Source of the DNA: Parcubacteria group bacterium Gr01-1014_3
Lineage (GTDB): Bacteria; Patescibacteriota; Minisyncoccia; UBA6257; WO2-44-18
Assembly (NCBI GenBank): GCA_007376445.1
Contig: VMGF01000002.1
Location: 167,928 to 231,927 of the forward strand
Reading direction: 5' to 3'
DNA: 64,000 bases
The position numbers and the translations under genes were made by a program. Under the pieces are notes generated by a model. That model was not told where the DNA came from. It searched no databases and saw nothing but the letters and a program-made list of their open reading frames with translations. Positions 2,009 through 51,377 of this stretch are shown here, in pieces. The stretch's first letter is position 1; every line of letters starts with the position of its first letter.

Positions 2009-3163
2009 ATGAAATTCGATTTCTTGGTTCTGGGAGCAACGGGAATGCAAGGCAGAATCGTCACGGCCGATTTGATTGGAAAGGGTTACAAAGTTTTTGG
2101 TTCTAGCCGGCACGCGAAGGGGTTAGAAAAAGTTCAAGAACAGCATCCGACTTTTCAGTTTGAGGAGTTGGATCTATCCGATAGTAAAAAGATCGCGGAA
2201 TTAATCTCCAGAGTTAATCCGGGAGTCGTCATCAACTGCGCCGAAGGAGATTGGAACTTCGAAGTTTATCAGGCGGCTCTTGAAGCGGGAGCGAATGTGA
2301 TTGATCTTGGTTCCGATATTCCGACCACTCAAAAGCAGATGGCCCTTGATCAAGCGTTCAAAGAAAAAGGACTGACCGCTATTACCGGCTGTGGTTCCAC
2401 GCCGGGAGTAAACGACGTGATGCTCAGATACGCGTCAGGCTTTTTAGACACCATTGATACGATCGAGGCGGGTTTTGCCTGGAATTCCGAGCCTCAAACA
2501 TTCGTCGTGCCATTTTCGATGGAAAGCATCTTCGAGGAGTTCACTGATCCGGCGCAGGTCTTTGAAAACGGCGAGTGGGGCGTGAAAGTGCCTATGGAAA
2601 CCGTTCAAGACAAAGAATTCCGTGAAGTAGGAAATCAAAAAGTCTTTCTAGTCCGGCATCCGGAAACTTACACCTTTTATTACTACTTCCAGGATCTCGG
2701 GGTGAAAACAGTTCGCTTCTACGCCGGATTCCCCGATCATTCCTTTAATGTCATACAAGATTATATAAAACGGGGGCTAACTAAAGATCGGAAGTTTTGT
2801 TTGGATGGAGAAAATTGCGCCCCCCTCACAGCTCTTACTAAAATCCTTCAGGAAAAACACGCTCCGCCGGAAGGATATGAGGAAAAAGAAAATTTGTGGG
2901 TTTCTCTGACCGGCACTAAAAACGGCAGAAAGGAAACGATCTTGATGGAATGCATCGTCCCGACTCTCCCCGACTGGAAGAGCGCCGGTTGCAATATTGA
3001 TACCGGCTTTCCGGCTTCAATCATGGCTCAGATGATCCTAAATAAAGTAGTTGCTGACCGTGGCAGTTTTGCCCCGGCCGGGATTATTCCGCCGGAACCA
3101 TTTTTCGAGGAATTGAAAAAGAGAAGCATGAGAATCTACATGAACGGAGCGCAAATCGTTTAA
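2009..3163 (+). CDS. saccharopine dehydrogenase-like NAD(P)-binding oxidoreductase
   Basis: N-terminal LVLGATGMQGRIV Rossmann motif; Sacchrp_dh-like length and architecture. Confidence 0.55.
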   Translation: MKFDFLVLGATGMQGRIVTADLIGKGYKVFGSSRHAKGLEKVQEQHPTFQFEELDLSDSKKIAELISRVNPGVVINCAEGDWNFEVYQAALEAGANVIDLGSDIPTTQKQMALDQAFKEKGLTAITGCGSTPGVNDVMLRYASGFLDTIDTIEAGFAWNSEPQTFVVPFSMESIFEEFTDPAQVFENGEWGVKVPMETVQDKEFREVGNQKVFLVRHPETYTFYYYFQDLGVKTVRFYAGFPDHSFNVIQDYIKRGLTKDRKFCLDGENCAPLTALTKILQEKHAPPEGYEEKENLWVSLTGTKNGRKETILMECIVPTLPDWKSAGCNIDTGFPASIMAQMILNKVVADRGSFAPAGIIPPEPFFEELKKRSMRIYMNGAQIV

Positions 3164-4461
3164 GCGGCTGAATCACCAGCTACATAACCGGTCGTCCAAC
3201 AGAGTTGAAGCGAGTAGCCGCCCGAGGGCCGATCTACATTTAATACGTCGCCAACGAGATAAAGCCATGGGATTAAGCGGGACTGCATTGTTTTGAAATT
3301 CACCTCTTCGAGCGCCACACCCCCGGACGAAACAATCGCTTTATTGGCCCCGAGTAAACCGGAAACATTGAGCGGAACCGCTTTCAGGAGCGCGACTATT
3401 TTCTTTCGAGATTCGGCGCTGACGCTGTGATTGGCCGTCTCCCCGCTGATCTCGGCAATCTCCAAAAGCGCGGACACTAGCGCGGCGGGGATCAGTTTGT
3501 TTAAAACATTTTTCAGCTTTTTATTGCTCTCGCCTATTAAAAGTTCCTGGAGTTTTTTGCGAAGCGAACCAAGATCGGTCTTTGGAAAAAGATCGAGCTC
3601 GATAACTACCTCGCCATATTTTAAAAGTTCGCCAATCTCTTTGCTTATATTCAAGACCGTCGGGCCGCTGATGCCAAAGTGCGTAAAGAGAAGTTTGCCA
3701 TTCACGCTGATCTGTTTTTGCCGGTTTTGTCCTCCAGAGGCGGATCCGCCCCAGGCGGAAAAAATCGTGAGCTTGATGTCTTTTAACGTAACGCCGCCAA
3801 GTTTTTTGGCCCACGCGTCTGAAAGTGCAATCGGAACAAGAGCGAAATCGTTGTCGACGATTGTATGCCCTAGTTTTTTAAGCCATTTGAATCCTTCGCC
3901 GGTCGAGCCGGTCTCCGGACGGGATGTGCCGCCAGTAGCCAGAACGCACGACTTGGTGATAATTTCCCCGCCCACATCGCTAAGCGAAGTGTGGCGGGCA
4001 GGTTTTCCGCCTTTTACTTTGATAATAATATTTTTTGTATCCGGATCGACTGAAAGCCCGGCAACCTCAACGCCCGTCTGAACTTTCACGCCACCCTCTT
4101 TCATATACTCAACCAGCACATCCCAGACGGACTTCGCGCTATCCGATACCGGGAAAATTCTACCCTCATTTTCTTCTTTGGTGGCCATGCCTCTTTTGTT
4201 AAAAAAATCTAGCGCTTCTGTAACTCCAAACTGGGAAAAAGCGGAAAAAAGAAACTGGTCATTGCCTTTGTATTTTTCAACCATCAGACGAACCGCCGGT
4301 TTATTGTTGGTCACATTACACCGCCCACCGCCGGTAATAAGCAGTTTTTTGCCCAAACCAGGATTCTTTTCAAGTAATAAAACAGAACGGCCTTTGCTTG
4401 CCGCTCTACCAGCCGCCATCATCCCAGCCGGCCCTCCGCCGATAACTACGACGTCATACAT
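3160..4461 (-). CDS. HI0933/YhiN-family FAD flavoprotein
   Basis: VVVIGGGPAGMMAA and GGGRCNVTN motifs. Carries the in-frame palindromic element (FSAWGGSASGGQ). Confidence 0.7.
   Translation of the reverse strand: MYDVVVIGGGPAGMMAAGRAASKGRSVLLLEKNPGLGKKLLITGGGRCNVTNNKPAVRLMVEKYKGNDQFLFSAFSQFGVTEALDFFNKRGMATKEENEGRIFPVSDSAKSVWDVLVEYMKEGGVKVQTGVEVAGLSVDPDTKNIIIKVKGGKPARHTSLSDVGGEIITKSCVLATGGTSRPETGSTGEGFKWLKKLGHTIVDNDFALVPIALSDAWAKKLGGVTLKDIKLTIFSAWGGSASGGQNRQKQISVNGKLLFTHFGISGPTVLNISKEIGELLKYGEVVIELDLFPKTDLGSLRKKLQELLIGESNKKLKNVLNKLIPAALVSALLEIAEISGETANHSVSAESRKKIVALLKAVPLNVSGLLGANKAIVSSGGVALEEVNFKTMQSRLIPWLYLVGDVLNVDRPSGGYSLQLCWTTGYVAGDSAA
3730..3762 (-). repeat. in-frame double-hairpin palindromic mini-element, copy 1
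   Basis: Plus strand TCCTCCagaGGCGGATCCGCCccaGGCGGAAAA; sense strand of host gene TTT TCC GCC tgg GGC GGA TCC GCC tct GGA GGA. Confidence 0.8.
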
Positions 4462-11177: not shown

Positions 11178-11281
11178 CTTGATTCCTTTCTTAGAACACC
11201 TCCAATTTAGCAAAGGATTTTAAGTCGCGCAAGTTTGAAATTTTTAAACTTTGAGTTATAATACAAAGCAGTTCTTAATAT

Positions 11282-11572
11282 TCCCCGGTAGCTCAGCGGT
11301 AGAGCAGCTCGCTGTGAAATAGCGCAGCCTCCTAGAGTAATCTAGGTTGAATAACGAGGTGAACTCGGTGAAACCCCTTTGGGGCAATACCGAGCCAAGC
11401 CCAGATGAAAATCTGGGAAGGTGTAGAGACTATCCCGAAAGGGAGTACTCCAGCGAAAGCTGGCGGAAGCGCCTCGATCCGACAAAGGTCGGATATGATA
11501 TAGTCCACCCCTATTAGTAATAGTAGGACAAGTGTAACGAGAAGGTCCCAGGTTCGATCCCTGGCCGGGGAG
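11282..11572 (+). tRNA. tRNA interrupted by a roughly 219-nt group I intron in the anticodon loop; mature anticodon most likely GUU (Asn), alternatively UGU (Thr)
   Basis: 5' half TCCCCGG-TA-GCTC-AGCGGTA-GAGC-A-GCTCG-CUGU; 3' half UAA-CGAGA-AGGTC-CCAGG-TTCGATC-CCTGG-CCGGGGA-G. P1 pairs exon GCUGU with intron GCAGC through a U.G wobble. Confidence 0.7.
11316..11534 (+). ncRNA. group I intron (self-splicing type) within the tRNA
   Basis: Conserved core elements GACUAUC (R, about 11428) and GAUAUAGUCC (S, about 11498); terminal G; 5' exon ends in U. Confidence 0.65.
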
Positions 11573-11617
11573 CAAATAAAAAAGCCAAGTATTTCAACTT
11601 GGCTAAAAATTTCACGA

Positions 11618-31486: not shown

Positions 31487-32590
31487 CTAAATCTCTTCCG
31501 CTAGCTCCTCCAACAGTTTCTTCGCCTTCGCGCTTAATTTTTTCGGAGTTTTCACGTGCCACTCTATATAAAGATCACCGCGGCCAAAACCGCCAAAGCG
31601 CTTCATGCCGCGTCCGGACACCCGAAGTTGTTCTTTCAAATTAAAATCCGCCGGAATTTCCACGTGAATCTTCTCGCCGGAAATATCCTGAACCTCGATC
31701 TTTTTTCCAAGCACCGCGTCCACGAAGCCAACTTCTTTTTTCAGCAACAAATCATCGCCATGGCGTTCAAAGTTCTTATCGGCTTTCACTTTAATACGAA
31801 TATATAAGTCGCCCTGCTCGGCGCCGCGCTCTCCCACTTCACCAGCCTTGGTAATCTTCATCATCTGGCCATCACCGACACCCGGAGTTATATCGATCTC
31901 AAGAGTCCTCTCGCCTATCGCGCGGCCAACGCCTTTGCAGGTTGAGCAGGTCTTGTTTGGGATCTGGCCGGTGCCGCTGCACTTGGCGCAGGCCCGGACT
32001 TGGGAAAAACTGCCGAAGAATGTATTCCGCGCTTCACGGATCTCTCCGCGGCCGTTGCAGGTGTCACAGGTAGTCGTGCCTTCCTTTGGGAAATGACCGA
32101 CGCCAGCGCATTCTTTACAAGCTATAAAAGTTTTAATGTGAACCGCCCGCTTCACTCCGGTAAACGCCTCTTCAAGAGTAATTTGTTGAACCACTTCAAG
32201 ATCCGCGCCCCGCTGATAAGTCTTTCGTTTCTTAACTCCCAAGCCCTCGAAGATCGCGTCAAAAACTTCGCTCATATTACCCATATCTTCAAAATTGGAC
32301 GGATCAAAGCCCGCGCCGAAATCAAAACCACCGAAAGGATTGCCAAATGGGCCGTCTCCTCCCGAGGAGGATCCGCCTCCGGCGGAAAAAACCCGGCCAA
32401 ACTGGTCGTACTGCGACCGTTTGTCTTTGTTGGAGAGCACCTGATAAGCCTCATTGATCTCTTTAAATTTCTGCTCATCGCCGTGAGATTTATCCGGATG
32501 ATACTGATGCGCCAGCTTGCGATAAGCTTTTTTAATATCTTCCTCAGTCGCTTCTTTCTCCACGCCTAAAATTTTGTAGTAGTCTTTCAT
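31487..32590 (-). CDS. dnaJ: molecular chaperone DnaJ
   Basis: J domain with HPD. G/F region. Four CxxCxGxG repeats. Carries the in-frame palindromic element in the G/F region. Confidence 0.9.
   Translation of the reverse strand: MKDYYKILGVEKEATEEDIKKAYRKLAHQYHPDKSHGDEQKFKEINEAYQVLSNKDKRSQYDQFGRVFSAGGGSSSGGDGPFGNPFGGFDFGAGFDPSNFEDMGNMSEVFDAIFEGLGVKKRKTYQRGADLEVVQQITLEEAFTGVKRAVHIKTFIACKECAGVGHFPKEGTTTCDTCNGRGEIREARNTFFGSFSQVRACAKCSGTGQIPNKTCSTCKGVGRAIGERTLEIDITPGVGDGQMMKITKAGEVGERGAEQGDLYIRIKVKADKNFERHGDDLLLKKEVGFVDAVLGKKIEVQDISGEKIHVEIPADFNLKEQLRVSGRGMKRFGGFGRGDLYIEWHVKTPKKLSAKAKKLLEELAEEI
32357..32391 (-). repeat. in-frame double-hairpin palindromic mini-element, copy 2
   Basis: TCCTCCcgaGGAGGATCCGCCtccGGCGGAAAAAA; sense strand encodes FSAGGGSSSGGD. 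Confidence 0.8.
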
Positions 32591-37121: not shown

Positions 37122-37248
37122 CCGCTTCGCGGCAAATTCCAAATGACAAATTTCAATTATCAAATAAATTCCGGGTCGTCCAGAATTTCGATCATTGATA
37201 TTTGGAGCTTATTTGTAATTTGGCGCTTGGAATTTGGAATTTTTAATT

Positions 37249-38712
37249 ATGCAAATCTTTAATTCTCTCTCTCAAACAAAAGAAAAACTCGAAGACGTGA
37301 TAACCGGCAAAAAAGTCCGGCTCTTCGTCTGCGGTCCCACGGTCTATCACGACGCGCACATCGGCAACGCCCGCACCTATATTTCTTTTGATATTATCGC
37401 CCGCTATCTCCGCTCGGCCGGTTTCAGAGTTTATTATCTCCAGAATATCACCGATATCGACGATAAGATCATCCGCCGCTCGGCCGCGGAAAACACTACC
37501 CCGCAAGCGCTCGCCAAAAAATATGAAAAGATCTATCACGAAGATGAGAAAAAGCTCGGAATCATCTCGGTCAATAAATACGCCCGGGCGACTTCCTATA
37601 TAAAGCAGATCGTGAAGCAGGTGCAGACCCTGATCGACAAAGGCCACGCCTACAAGATTGACGACGGATATTACTTCGACCTCTCCACTTTTCCGGATTA
37701 CGGCAAACTCGCCCGCCGGACGGTACTTCAGGCGGAAGATTCCACTTCGCGTATTGATGAGAATCCGAATAAAAAAAATCGGGGTGATTTCGTGCTGTGG
37801 AAATTTTCTTCCGCCCAAGGCGGATCCTCCTCCGGAGGAAAAGAAGGCGCCGCCCCTACCGGGGGCGAGCCTCGCCCTGAGGCAGGGCGGGAGCCATCTT
37901 GGAACACCAAGTTAGGCAGTGGACGGCCAGGCTGGCACATCGAAGACACGGCGATCACCGAGTATCAGTTCGGCCCACAGTATGATATTCACGGTGGCGC
38001 GATCGATCTGAAGTTCCCCCATCACGAAGCCGAGATCGCCCAACAGGAGGCCGCCTCCGGCAAAAAACCGATGGTGAAGATCTGGATGCACGCGGGCTTT
38101 TTAAATATCGGCGGAGAGAAGATGTCGAAGAGCTTTGGTGAATTCGTCACGATCCGGGAATTTTTAGAAAAACATTCCGCGCTAGTCTTGCGATTCATGG
38201 TGGCAAGTCACCACTACCGAGCGCCGATGGATTACTCTGAGGCGTTGCTCCGGCAATCCAAAAATACCTTACTCAATCTAATGGGTTTTCTGGGGAAGTT
38301 GGAGATGGCCCGAGGCTCCGCCAAAGCCTTGGCGGCGGAAGAGTTAGTAAAGAAAATGGCGGAGGAATTCCAAGCCGCCATGCAAGACGATTTCAATACG
38401 CCAGAAGCTCTCGCGGCAATATTTTCGCTGATCAATCAGTTCCAAAAATCTGTTTGGGAGCTGGATAAAAAATCAGCCAAGTTGATCACAAAATCCATCG
38501 TCAGCTCGCTTGAAGTCCTAGGGCTAGAGCTTCCGAAGGTCAAAATCCCCTCTCAAATCCAGAAAAAAGTGAAGGAGCGAGAGTTATACAGAGGAAATGC
38601 ACAATTTATCCCAGCAGACACTTTGCGGCAAGAAATAGAAGCGTTAGGATATACAGTAGACGACACACCCCGCGGACCATTAGTATTGCCGCGGGAAATA
38701 ACTAATTCCTAA
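37249..38712 (+). CDS. cysS: cysteine--tRNA ligase
   Basis: HIGN (HIGH), KMSKS and GRPGWHIE motifs. About 27-aa insertion after DFVLWK made of palindromic elements. Confidence 0.85.
   Translation: MQIFNSLSQTKEKLEDVITGKKVRLFVCGPTVYHDAHIGNARTYISFDIIARYLRSAGFRVYYLQNITDIDDKIIRRSAAENTTPQALAKKYEKIYHEDEKKLGIISVNKYARATSYIKQIVKQVQTLIDKGHAYKIDDGYYFDLSTFPDYGKLARRTVLQAEDSTSRIDENPNKKNRGDFVLWKFSSAQGGSSSGGKEGAAPTGGEPRPEAGREPSWNTKLGSGRPGWHIEDTAITEYQFGPQYDIHGGAIDLKFPHHEAEIAQQEAASGKKPMVKIWMHAGFLNIGGEKMSKSFGEFVTIREFLEKHSALVLRFMVASHHYRAPMDYSEALLRQSKNTLLNLMGFLGKLEMARGSAKALAAEELVKKMAEEFQAAMQDDFNTPEALAAIFSLINQFQKSVWELDKKSAKLITKSIVSSLEVLGLELPKVKIPSQIQKKVKERELYRGNAQFIPADTLRQEIEALGYTVDDTPRGPLVLPREITNS
37806..37842 (+). 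repeat. in-frame double-hairpin palindromic mini-element, copy 3 (followed by three more GC hairpins to about 37896)
   Basis: TTT TCT TCC GCC caa GGC GGA TCC TCC tcc GGA GGA AAA encodes FSSAQGGSSSGGK. Confidence 0.8.
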
Positions 38713-47994: not shown

Positions 47995-48168
47995 AATAGT
48001 TTTAATATAGCAGAAACTTATTCATCCCGCACCTTGCTTCTACGCGTAGAAGCAAGGTGCGGGATTGACAACTCGGCAAATAAATCTTTTTTTGGCTTTT
48101 TTCTTGTAAAAGATTGTATTACTCTACTATATAGTGCTTTGACAAAATTCCATTGAAAGGAAAAGGCC

Positions 48169-50600: not shown

Positions 50601-50701
50601 AAATTAACTAATAACGAATTTGTTACGAATAAGCAAATATACGAATATGTGCCGATTCGTTTATTCGTATATTAGTTCAGATTAGTTATTCGTTAATTTG
50701 G
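50601..50701. repeat. TTCGTATA/CGAATA-word repeat block (family 7, copy 2)
   Basis: GATTCGTTTATTCGTATATTAGTTCAGATTAGTTATTCGTTAATT. Ends at the truB stop. Confidence 0.6.
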
Positions 50702-51377
50702 TGAAATCCGCCAGAGTTAAAGCTTTCTCTTTTTTTCCTCCGGAGGAGGATCCGCCTCTGGCGGAAAATTGACCTACCCGCGTCCTCTCCAGGCCGGCCA
50801 AATACCCGCCAACTTTTAATTTTTTGCCCAAATCCCGCGCCAATGAACGGATATAAACTCCTGGGCCGGTCACCACCCGCAATTCTAAAAATGGCCACTT
50901 ATATTTCAATAAGGAGATCTTTTTAATGAATGCCGGGCGGGATTTCATCTTAACTTTCTGACCTTTCCTGGCGAGCTTATAAGCTTCTTTGCCGGCGATC
51001 TTGATCGCGCTGAAAATCGGCGGTGTCTGGCGGATATTTCCAACGAATTTTTTCATTGCCACGCGAATCTCTTTCAGCTCCGGTTTCTTGGAAAATTCAA
51101 CCGCGGATTTTTCACCTTCATCATCGTCGGTCGTGCTGTAAAATCCTAGCTTAATCTTGGCTAGATATTCTTTTTCTTTTTTGACGACTTCGCCGAGTTG
51201 TTTTGTGCCAGGACGGCCGATGCCGATCACCAGAACACCGCTGGCCAGCGGATCTAAAGTTCCAGCATGCCCGATCTTGCGGATGCCGGTGATTTTCCGG
51301 AGGCGGTTCAAAAAGCCGTTAGAAGTCGGTCCTTTCGGTTTATACGCGCCATAAATACCTTCAATGGTCTTCTTCAT
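50682..51377 (-). CDS. truB: tRNA pseudouridine(55) synthase
   Basis: GHAGTLDPLASGVL catalytic motif. C-terminal PUA-like region interrupted by the in-frame element. Confidence 0.85.
   Translation of the reverse strand: MKKTIEGIYGAYKPKGPTSNGFLNRLRKITGIRKIGHAGTLDPLASGVLVIGIGRPGTKQLGEVVKKEKEYLAKIKLGFYSTTDDDEGEKSAVEFSKKPELKEIRVAMKKFVGNIRQTPPIFSAIKIAGKEAYKLARKGQKVKMKSRPAFIKKISLLKYKWPFLELRVVTGPGVYIRSLARDLGKKLKVGGYLAGLERTRVGQFSARGGSSSGGKKEKALTLADFTKLTNN
50736..50768 (-). repeat. in-frame double-hairpin palindromic mini-element, copy 4
   Basis: TCCTCCggaGGAGGATCCGCCtctGGCGGAAAA; sense strand encodes FSARGGSSSGGKK. Confidence 0.8.

What the first reader, a model, noticed from the sequence alone, without database searches (positions are those of the whole stretch)
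3730..3762. Family of about 33-bp double-hairpin palindromic mini-elements inserted in frame, same orientation and phase, into four unrelated essential genes
The same nucleotide module occurs at 3730-3762 (HI0933-like flavoprotein), 32357-32391 (dnaJ), 37806-37842 (cysS) and 50736-50768 (truB). It is two tandem hairpins, TCCGCC-N3-GGCGGA and TCC(T/G)CC-N3-GGAGGA, joined around a GGATCC core. On the sense strand of each host gene it reads TTT TCC GCC nnn GGC GGA TCC (T/G)CC nnn GGA GGA, encoding F-S-A-x-G-G-S-S/A-x-G-G. The 3-nt loops differ between copies while both stems are conserved, which looks like selection on a nucleic-acid hairpin. Orientation and frame are the same in all four hosts, which implies filtering at the protein level. 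The closest known analogue is the in-frame Rickettsia palindromic element, but this unit is several times shorter. The antisense ORFs that contain PPEADPP are artefacts of the element.
Basis: seen in the sequence. Interest (0 to 1): 0.85.

Follow-up and report, generated by a model that had tools for sequence, protein, structure and literature searches.

The report
30-bp double-hairpin repeat inside genes
A 30-base palindromic DNA module that folds into two small hairpins has been copied into hundreds of places, including the reading frames of housekeeping genes, in ultra-small groundwater bacteria and several other uncultivated phyla, and it survives in genes only in the frame that encodes a harmless Ser/Ala/Gly loop.

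Summary
The window (Parcubacteria MAG Gr01-1014_3) holds four copies of TCCGCC-N3-GGCGGA-TCC[G/T]CC-N3-GGAGGA, where shuffles give none. All four are read as S-A-x-G-G-S-S/A-x-G-G inside a flavoprotein gene, dnaJ, cysS and truB. A cysS orthologue shows an empty site at DNA level: net +30 bp, no target duplication.

Both scans hit the 120-stretch limit, in about 109 MAG species labelled as more than 10 phyla and in metagenomes. It is almost absent from viral contigs, and no full-length match turned up in plasmid or phage records.

Of 266 unique copies, 129 lie in open frames in that one frame, 16 in the other two, and 121 are non-coding. Orientation is not constrained (33:27). Double changes in the stems are always within one hairpin.

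Best reading: a selfish REP-dimer/MITE-like mini-element filtered by protein-level selection. It is a much shorter, cross-phylum analogue of Rickettsia palindromic elements and intragenic REPs. The mobilising enzyme is unknown.

New lead: an E-type double hairpin sits in the leader of small GIY-YIG nuclease genes nested at tRNA-Glu genes, in 6 of 6 loci sampled by protein alone.

The parts
3730..3759 (-). Element copy 1. Sense strand: TCCGCC TGG GGCGGA TCCGCC TCT GGAGGA. Encodes SAWGGSASGG. The second hairpin has one mismatch.
   Evidence: It aligns as a gap of about 9 residues against PDB 2i0z.
3160..4461 (-). Host gene 1: HI0933-like NAD(FAD)-utilising flavoprotein, 433 aa
   Evidence: E = 1e-76 to 2i0z
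32357..32386 (-). Element copy 2. Sense strand: TCCGCC GGA GGCGGA TCCTCC TCG GGAGGA. Encodes SAGGGSSSGG, in the G/F-rich linker of DnaJ.
31487..32590 (-). Host gene 2: dnaJ, 367 aa
   Evidence: DnaJ genes in other loci carry the element at other positions.
37810..37839 (+). Element copy 3: TCCGCC CAA GGCGGA TCCTCC TCC GGAGGA. Encodes SAQGGSSSGG. An exact +30 bp relative to orthologues.
37234..38712 (+). Host gene 3: cysS (cysteinyl-tRNA synthetase), 492-aa ORF from an upstream TTG. The deposited protein is 487 aa.
   Evidence: P0001, 100% identity, Parcubacteria group bacterium Gr01-1014_3
50736..50765 (-). Element copy 4. Sense strand: TCCGCC AGA GGCGGA TCCTCC TCC GGAGGA. Encodes SARGGSSSGG, near the C-terminus of TruB.
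   Evidence: Homology to solved TruB structures ends at the element.
50682..51377 (-). Host gene 4: truB (tRNA pseudouridine-55 synthase, short form), 231 aa

Best explanation
The element (E) is a non-autonomous, selfish 30-bp DNA module. It consists of two head-to-head 15-nt hairpin units (TCCGCC-NRA-GGCGGA | TCCGCC-TYN-GGCGGA) around a GGATCC centre.

Shown:
- E is added to pre-existing sequence as an exact 30-bp block.
- It lands preferentially between a T-run and an A-run.
- It lands in both intergenic and coding DNA.
- Coding copies persist almost only in the one frame that reads S-A/S-x-G-G-S-A/S-x-G-G, in variable loops, linkers or termini.
- The stems are kept complementary within each hairpin.

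Inferred:
- Each hairpin, in single-stranded DNA or RNA, is what the propagation machinery recognises. This would explain why 24 fixed bases stay identical across phyla.
- Frame bias is post-insertion purifying selection, not targeting. The other two frames (PPxADPPxAE and RxxRIRxxR) contain no stop codons either.

Most likely mechanism (about 0.3): breaks at T-run/A-run sites are repaired by copying E from another copy, primed on the 2-3 nt T/A microhomologies, so no target duplication results. The breaks would be made by the small GIY-YIG nucleases nested at tRNA-Glu genes, whose leaders always carry an E-type double hairpin. In those leaders the GGAGG arm is the Shine-Dalgarno sequence, sequestered by UCCUCC. 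A hairpin-recognising HUH/RAYT-like transposase is the main alternative.
For: - Four window copies where shuffles give none.
- DNA-level empty site versus filled site in cysS: +30 bp and no duplication.
- Insertion relative to a solved flavoprotein structure.
- Independent insertions at different positions of the same gene families: DnaJ, CysRS, DnaG, TsaD, MurC, ValRS.
- Frame 0 in 129 of 145 coding copies.
- Loop-codon bias towards Ser in coding copies, p = 3e-4.
- Flank preference: T at -2 in 82% of copies and A at +2 in 78%.
- No left-right flank covariation, so E does not sit in pre-existing hairpins.
- Within-hairpin compensatory changes only: 10 + 2 elements versus 0 across hairpins.
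- Both hairpins fold in isolation: the two-hairpin structure is the MFE for copies 3 and 4.
- GIY-YIG link: E lies 10-48 nt upstream of 10 of 15 GIY-YIG genes in E-selected loci. All 10 abut a tRNA gene: Glu x8, Ser, Gly. In a sample chosen by protein homology alone, 6 of 6 distinct loci have a double or multiple GC-rich hairpin with E-type stems. It sits between a duplicated tRNA-Glu 5' fragment, broken after anticodon nucleotide 35, and the ATG. Only one of the six matches the strict pattern.
- Cassette loci hold about 6 times more extra E copies per kb (Poisson p = 7e-4).
Against: - No transposase or nuclease gene is present in the 64-kb window (no GIY-YIG hit). Co-occurrence at genome level could not be tested.
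- GIY-YIG homing endonucleases are known to drive homology-dependent homing, not dispersal to unrelated sites (established knowledge).
- The link could simply reflect one old E insertion exapted as an SD-sequestering leader and inherited with the cassette.
- About 10% of copies are abutted by 7-bp direct repeats, often as XX[E]XX arrays. This is 5-10 times the rate at random TTT^ sites. It hints at staggered-cut transposition and does not fit the cysS case, which has no duplication.
- Only one empty site was examined at DNA level.
- Compensatory changes may be inherited within a subfamily rather than arising independently.
- Phylum labels of some TPA MAGs are unreliable, and short contigs may be mis-binned. 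However, contigs of 1.6 Mb (Ignavibacteriota), 287 kb (Omnitrophota) and 124 kb (Desulfotomaculaceae) also carry E.
Confidence: 0.65

Rival explanations
1. E is a REP doublet (REPIN-like) or a minimal IS200/IS605-type palindrome-associated element. A tyrosine HUH transposase (RAYT or TnpA-Y1) would move it as single-stranded DNA by recognising the two hairpins. That mechanism gives no target duplication.
For: - Two identical-stem hairpins lie on one strand, with within-hairpin covariation.
- The cysS insertion has no target duplication.
- There is a fixed short sequence preference 5' of the element.
- REP dimers inside genes are documented (PMC3733652).
Against: - No GTAG or CGTC tag is present at either end.
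- Both flanks are constrained symmetrically (T-run on the left and A-run on the right), unlike one-sided IS200/IS605 targets.
- No recurrent transposase-like ORF appears within 2.5 kb of 266 copies. GIY-YIG was the only recurrent family next to E that was not an evident housekeeping gene (family identities inferred from sequence, only GIY-YIG checked against Pfam).
- REP families are usually lineage-specific, whereas E is identical across phyla.
- Y1 transposases were not searched with a profile.
Confidence: 0.2
2. E is a host-useful structured module that is recruited repeatedly for function rather than spreading selfishly. It could act at RNA level (translation attenuator or SD-sequestering hairpin, RNase target, mRNA stabiliser) or at DNA level (binding site for a dimeric protein).
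For: - In GIY-YIG leaders the GGAGGA arm lies 9-12 nt upstream of the ATG and is paired with TCCTCC.
- Stems are conserved while loops vary.
- T is depleted directly downstream of the hairpins, so the element avoids making terminators.
Against: - Copies sit in unrelated genes at non-homologous positions and are absent from close orthologues.
- Only about 4-6% of copies lie just upstream of a gene start, with no excess for the GGAGGA variant.
- There is no orientation bias relative to transcription.
- No Rfam family matches.
Confidence: 0.1
3. E is a genomic signal that accumulates through biased processes, such as a DNA uptake sequence or a parS- or Chi-like site, rather than a discrete insertion.
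For: Palindromic, conserved at nucleotide level across taxa, and tolerated in particular reading frames, as uptake sequences are (established knowledge for Haemophilus and Neisseria).
Against: - It appears as an exact 30-bp block absent from orthologues, not as a motif built up by point mutations.
- Its density is low (4 per 64 kb).
- It occurs in phyla with no shared uptake machinery.
- Partial or graded matches are few.
Confidence: 0.04
4. E is a technical artefact (adaptor, linker or assembly chimera), or a convergent Gly/Ser linker selected only at protein level.
For: Central BamHI site. The exact 12-mer appears in the literature only in cloning primers.
Against: - It is found in MAGs from many laboratories, assemblers and platforms, including contigs of 0.87-1.65 Mb.
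- Loops vary.
- The strong frame bias and the codon-level filter cannot come from artefacts.
- Third-codon positions are invariant across genomes of 33-70% G+C, which rules out protein-only selection.
Confidence: 0.01

Closest known systems
Rickettsia palindromic elements (RPE; Ogata et al. 2000, recalled from memory; cited in PMC3733652)
   Same: Palindromic selfish repeats found in frame inside functional protein genes as well as in intergenic DNA. They are tolerated in surface or linker segments.
   Different: RPE-1 elements are roughly 100-150 bp and confined to Rickettsia. E is 30 bp (10 aa), has a two-hairpin architecture, and occurs with identical fixed bases in MAGs labelled as more than 10 phyla. 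Sequence relatedness to RPEs was not tested.
REP / BIME / REPIN elements, including intragenic REP dimers (Di Nocera et al. 2013, PMC3733652)
   Same: Short GC-rich hairpin units paired head-to-head. They are high in copy number, and some dimers lie inside genes and encode 20-30 aa.
   Different: E has no GTAG or CGTC tag and its units are only 15 nt with no spacer. About half of the copies are intragenic. No RAYT was seen nearby. Its sequence is shared across phyla rather than being lineage-specific.
Bacterial MITEs (Correia/NEMIS, RUP and others)
   Same: The two halves are inverted repeats, there is no coding capacity, and the copies are dispersed.
   Different: MITEs are 70-300 bp with a defined target duplication and a cognate IS. 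E is 30 bp. The one DNA-level empty site shows no duplication, only about 10% of copies have 7-bp flanking repeats, and no IS with matching ends was found.
Double-hairpin elements of fungal mitochondria and hairpin repeats or coding palindromes in organelle genes (Allomyces DHEs recalled from memory; Nematomorpha coding palindromes, PMC6649704, abstract seen)
   Same: Tiny two-hairpin or palindromic modules inserted into coding sequence while the reading frame stays open.
   Different: Those occur in organelle genomes and have unrelated sequences. E is in free-living or episymbiotic bacteria.
Free-standing GIY-YIG homing endonucleases next to tRNA genes (phage T4 SegB, PMC2330249, abstract seen)
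   Same: This applies to the cassette, not to E itself: a small GIY-YIG ORF embedded at tRNA genes, with a duplicated tRNA fragment that restores an intact tRNA.
   Different: The proteins here are about 85 aa, consisting of the catalytic domain only, and are found on CPR MAG and metagenome contigs. Their activity is untested, and no Seg-type enzyme is known to spread a mini-element.

Membership tests
Rickettsia palindromic elements (RPE) | Palindromic repeat found in frame within functional ORFs | tested here: met
   129 of 145 coding copies are in one open frame, and there are 4 of 4 in the window.
Rickettsia palindromic elements (RPE) | Length about 100-150 bp and sequence homology to RPE families of Rickettsia | tested here: not met
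   The unit is exactly 30 bp and the hosts are CPR and other phyla. Homology to RPE sequences was not compared.
REP / REPIN (RAYT-mobilised) | Unpaired GTAG or CGTC tetranucleotide tag at one end of the palindrome (PMC3733652) | tested here: not met
   The element ends are TCCGCC and GGCGGA, and the flanks are a T-run and an A-run.
REP / REPIN (RAYT-mobilised) | Hairpin units arranged as inverted doublets | tested here: met
   The two 15-nt units have loops NRA and TYN, that is, they lie in opposite orientation with no spacer.
REP / REPIN (RAYT-mobilised) | Cognate RAYT (Y1 HUH transposase) gene flanked by the repeats | tested here: inconclusive
   No recurrent transposase-like cluster lies within 2.5 kb of the copies. 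There was no profile search and whole genomes were not available.
MITE | Fixed-length target-site duplication | tested here: inconclusive
   The cysS empty/filled comparison shows none. 7-8 bp direct repeats abut 29 of 266 copies, against 0.4% at random positions (7-8 bp class) and 1-2% at TTT^ sites.
MITE | Size 70-300 bp and termini shared with an autonomous IS | tested here: not met
   E is 30 bp. Single hairpin units flanking a gene were not found.
IS200/IS605-type palindrome-associated elements | Subterminal hairpins, no duplication, and insertion 3' of a specific tetra- or pentanucleotide on one strand only | tested here: inconclusive
   Hairpins are present and the cysS case has no duplication. 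But both flanks are constrained symmetrically and there is no room for guide sequences.
Intrinsic terminator | GC-rich hairpin followed by a T-run | tested here: not met
   T makes up 3% and 5% of bases at +1 and +2, and an A-run follows. The copies lie inside continuous ORFs.
Any Rfam family | Match at the gathering score | tested here: not met
   The only hits are three tRNAs and one group I intron elsewhere in the window. At the element there are only sub-threshold chance hits.
Free-standing GIY-YIG homing cassette (Seg-like), for the associated cassette | GIY-YIG catalytic domain ORF inserted in or next to its target gene, with the target restored | tested here: met
   PF01541 at E = 1e-12 to 3e-16. 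Most loci examined show a duplicated tRNA-Glu 5' fragment, then the ORF, then an intact tRNA-Glu. Endonuclease activity was not testable.

The most novel reading that the evidence does not exclude
E is the dispersed, non-autonomous derivative of a tRNA-Glu-targeting GIY-YIG cassette. The roughly 85-aa nuclease would recognise the E hairpins, which resemble a contracted tRNA-Glu anticodon arm, and would cut at T-run/A-run sites. E is then copied into the break. That would make E the first mini-element mobilised by a GIY-YIG enzyme, and would explain both its sequence identity across more than 10 phyla and its routine presence inside housekeeping proteins of CPR bacteria.
Probability: 0.2. Interest if true: 0.85.

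Novelty: new variant of a known kind. Interest (0 to 1): 0.62.

Why it matters
If the reading is right, it matters in four ways.

1. It would be among the smallest in-frame selfish repeats I know of (10 codons). That shows how little sequence is needed for a repeat to invade essential genes when every frame is stop-free and one frame encodes a flexible linker.

2. The same 24 fixed bases recur in CPR, Omnitrophota, PVC, Ignavibacteriota, Chloroflexota and other MAGs. This points to a shared, still unidentified mobilising activity or to intense DNA exchange among uncultivated groundwater lineages.

3. The tie to GIY-YIG genes nested at tRNA-Glu genes gives a concrete candidate enzyme that can be tested.

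4. In practice, E and its relatives inflate and distort protein predictions in MAGs. They create spurious antisense ORFs containing PPEADPP or RRRIR, add extra loops to marker proteins, and can mislead alignment-based phylogenies and structure prediction.

Tried and rejected
- **Literature.** The exact 12-mer GGCGGATCCGCC occurs only in cloning primers. Searches combining palindromic, in-frame, CPR, MITE, GIY-YIG and tRNA terms found no description of this element. One possibly relevant 2026 preprint could not be opened.
- **Rfam.** Nothing at gathering score, and only chance hits below it.
- **Long single hairpin or cruciform instead of two hairpins.** It is the MFE for copies 1 and 2. I rejected it as the conserved structure because no compensatory change follows that pairing.
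- **Composite transposon between the two L005 copies, 1.8 kb apart.** No transposase lies between them. They are part of a larger local repeat.
- **Single hairpin units flanking a gene, as a possible autonomous element.** Not found. The two single CCGCC-N3-GGCGG sites in the window (24624 and 46272) are unrelated; 46272 looks like a terminator-type hairpin.
- **Insertion into pre-existing hairpins.** There is no flank covariation.
- **E as a general portable Shine-Dalgarno sequence.** Only 4-6% of copies lie upstream of gene starts, and the GGAGGA variant shows no excess.
- **Phage vector.** Only 2 of 2.9 million viral contigs match. There is no full-length match in plasmid or phage records.
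- **Exact look-up of the window's TruB.** Not on record.
- **DnaJ alignment.** It cannot show the insertion cleanly because the G/F region is itself Gly/Ser/Phe-rich.
- **Second GC-rich palindromic insert in cysS.** It is not a dispersed family in the sequences held.
Full report
**Observation**

The four sites exist as described. The pattern TCCGCC-N3-GGCGGATCC[G/T]CC-N3-GGAGGA matches without mismatch at 3730-3759(-), 32357-32386(-), 37810-37839(+) and 50736-50765(-). In 100 dinucleotide-preserving shuffles the mean number of matches was 0, and no further copy appears with up to 3 mismatches.

Each copy lies in a long ORF and is read as S-A-x-G-G-S-S/A-x-G-G. The hosts are an HI0933-like flavoprotein, DnaJ, CysRS and TruB. 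The window comes from the MAG 'Parcubacteria group bacterium Gr01-1014_3' (P0001, 100% identical CysRS). The unit is 30 bp. The TTT codon before it and the A-run after it belong to the host.

**It is an insertion**

In an alignment of CysRS orthologues, P0017 reads ...WKFSKEGAAPNGGEPR... where the window reads ...WKFS[SAQGGSSSGG]KEGAAPTGGEPR....

At DNA level the orthologue contig L121 has TGG AAA TTT TCC AAA GAA GGC GCC. The window has TGG AAA TTT TCT [30 bp] AAA GAA GGC GCC. That is a net gain of 30 bp with no target duplication.

The flavoprotein has about 9 extra residues exactly at the element when aligned to PDB 2i0z. In TruB, homology to solved structures stops at the element. DnaJ cannot be judged by alignment because its G/F region is itself Gly/Ser/Phe-rich.

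**Size and spread of the family**

All are MAGs, from about 109 assemblies (my count).
- Most are Patescibacteria/CPR lineages. Others are labelled Omnitrophota, Kiritimatiellae/Lentisphaerae/Verrucomicrobiota, Planctomycetes, Elusimicrobia, Ignavibacteriota, Bacteroidota, Firestonebacteria, Margulisbacteria, Chloroflexota, Desulfotomaculaceae and Deltaproteobacteria.
- Some labels and short contigs may be unreliable. But contigs of 1.6 Mb (Ignavibacteriota), 287 kb (Omnitrophota) and 124 kb (Desulfotomaculaceae) also carry the element.
- A metagenome scan for the window's GCC/TCC subfamily also hit the 120-stretch limit. Many of these contigs carry groundwater sample names such as Hain-H41/H51.
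- Only 2 of 2.9 million viral contigs match. Plasmid and phage records give no full-length match.
- The dominant form is TCCGCC-NRA-GGCGGA-TCCGCC-TYN-GGCGGA. The window's TCCTCC/GGAGGA second hairpin marks a subfamily.

**Frame, orientation and protein-level filter**

Of 266 unique copies, 129 lie in long open frames in frame 0, 16 lie in frames 1 or 2, and 121 are non-coding or unclear. With a 1/3 expectation the binomial p is about 4e-44. Neither alternative frame contains a fixed stop codon, so this is not a detection bias.

In coding copies the TYN loop codon is Ser in 90 cases and Phe/Leu/Tyr-type in 35. In non-coding copies the counts are 56 and 59 (Fisher p = 3e-4).

Orientation is not constrained. 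In the asymmetric subfamily, 33 frame-0 copies share the window's orientation relative to the gene and 27 are reversed. The same gene families were hit independently at different positions: DnaJ, CysRS, DnaG, TsaD, MurC, ValRS and T9SS tails.

**Structure**

Each copy can fold either as two 6-bp hairpins with 3-nt loops or as one long imperfect hairpin. Variation decides between them:

| Pattern at the four variable stem positions | Elements |
|---|---|
| GCGC (consensus) | 111 |
| Single change in an outer arm | 10 |
| G>T and C>A, both inside one hairpin | 10 |
| Changes in both hairpins | 2 |
| Changes compensated across the long-hairpin pairing | 0 |

The two-hairpin form is therefore the conserved one. 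The changed copies may share ancestry as a subfamily.

**Insertion sites**

The flanks show T at -2 in 82% of copies and A at +2 in 78%. T is nearly excluded at +1 and +2, so no terminator is created. The left and right flanks do not covary beyond composition.

About 10% of copies in every class are abutted by 7-bp (rarely 8-bp) direct repeats, often as XX[E]XX arrays. The rate is 0.4% at random positions (7-8 bp class) and 1-2% at random TTT^ sites. This is unexplained. It could be a preference for heptamer arrays or a duplication-producing mode of insertion.

**Search for a partner gene**

I clustered all ORFs within 2.5 kb of the copies. Judging from their sequences, the recurrent families were housekeeping genes plus one other: roughly 85-aa GIY-YIG proteins (PF01541).

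- In 10 of the 15 GIY-YIG genes present in these loci, E ends 10-48 nt upstream of the start.
- All ten genes run into a tRNA gene: Glu in eight, plus one Ser and one Gly.
- Upstream of E lies a duplicated 5' fragment of the same tRNA. For the Glu and Ser cases it is interrupted after anticodon nucleotide 35, and the tRNA sequence resumes for about 10-12 nt after E before the ATG.
- The GGAGGA arm therefore sits 9-12 nt before the start codon and is paired with TCCTCC.
- In a sample chosen only by protein homology, 6 of 6 distinct loci have a double or multiple GC-rich hairpin with E-type stems upstream of the ATG, and the ORF ends in an intact tRNA-Glu. In most of them the duplicated tRNA-Glu fragment is evident. 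Only one matches the strict pattern. The others vary: a GGACCC centre, CCCTCC/GGAGGG stems, extra hairpins, or a single 15-nt unit in the D-arm.
- Loci with a cassette carry about 6 times more additional E copies per kb.
- The window itself contains no GIY-YIG gene.

**Interpretation**

E behaves as selfish DNA. It is added as an exact block, it is dispersed, it is absent from orthologues, it has no orientation bias, and its distribution in genes is explained by purifying selection on the encoded peptide.

What moves it is not shown. I favour break repair that copies E from another copy, primed on the T/A microhomologies. The GIY-YIG/tRNA cassettes are the candidate source of both the breaks and the master copy (about 0.3). 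A hairpin-recognising HUH/RAYT-type transposase is next (about 0.2).

The GIY-YIG association could also be a single old exaptation of E as an SD-sequestering leader.

**Comparison with known families and novelty**

E works like Rickettsia palindromic elements and like intragenic REP dimers (PMC3733652), but it is a member of neither. It is 30 bp, lacks the GTAG or CGTC tag, has no RAYT nearby, and is shared across phyla. It fails the size and IS-partner criteria for MITEs. It matches no Rfam family. No description was found in the searchable literature.

I rate it a new variant of a known kind. It is of moderate to high interest because of its minimal size, its cross-phylum identity and the testable GIY-YIG lead.

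Noticed in passing
window 37849-37893: A second GC-rich, hairpin-rich in-frame insert lies in cysS directly after the element (GCCGCCCCTACCGGGGGCGAGCCTCGCCCTGAGGCAGGGCGGGAG, encoding AAPTGGEPRPEAGRE). It is present in orthologues P0015 and P0017 but absent from the closest 65%-identical orthologues such as P0002. It is not repeated elsewhere in the window or in the loci held. Other CPR CysRS proteins carry different inserts (RTDADS..RTNAD type) in the same loop.
   Followed up: partly
L177 4960-5350; L228 250-635; L153 1904-2330 (-); L128 30-415; L188 890-1287; L245-L260: A mobile-looking cassette: a tRNA-Glu 5' fragment (nucleotides 1-35), an E-type double hairpin, about 12 nt more of tRNA, then an 85-aa GIY-YIG ORF whose last codons and stop lie inside an intact tRNA-Glu. 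Variants occur at tRNA-Ser (L032) and tRNA-Gly (L117).
   Followed up: yes
window 11227-11527 (tRNA about 11284-11575, + strand): The Rfam group I intron model (57.8 bits) matches inside a tRNA gene, interrupting it in the anticodon region. This is a feature already reported for Patescibacteria.
   Followed up: no
window 48024-48065: A perfect 42-bp palindrome (ATCCCGCACCTTGCTTCTACG / CGTAGAAGCAAGGTGCGGGAT) with no spacer, unrelated in sequence to the element.
   Followed up: no
L146 3050-3420; L203 1280-1580; L043 4720-4800: Tandem heptamer arrays (GACTTTT, AGCTTTT, AAAATTC, AAATCTT) flank many element copies as XX[E]XX, both in intergenic DNA and at the 5' end of a gene that looks like uvrC in L043.
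   Followed up: partly
L146 3090-3180; L005 6246-6662: Other widespread GC-rich repeats (GTCATTGCGAG...GAAGCAATC type) lie next to element copies. They give spurious peptides such as CHPERSEE/RYARNDN. These genomes therefore host several short repeat families.
   Followed up: no
L251 about 712-726; L010 4339; L093 6366: Single 15-nt units (TCCGCC-N3-GGCGGA) occur alone. One is inserted in the D-arm of a tRNA-Glu pseudo-fragment. The half-element can therefore exist on its own, but it is much rarer than the doublet.
   Followed up: partly
window 3431-4081 (+) and 32000-32569 (+): Antisense ORFs of 216 and 189 aa run through the elements (CPPEADPPQAEK; SSRGGSASGG). They overlap the real genes and are artefacts that a gene caller could report.
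   Followed up: yes
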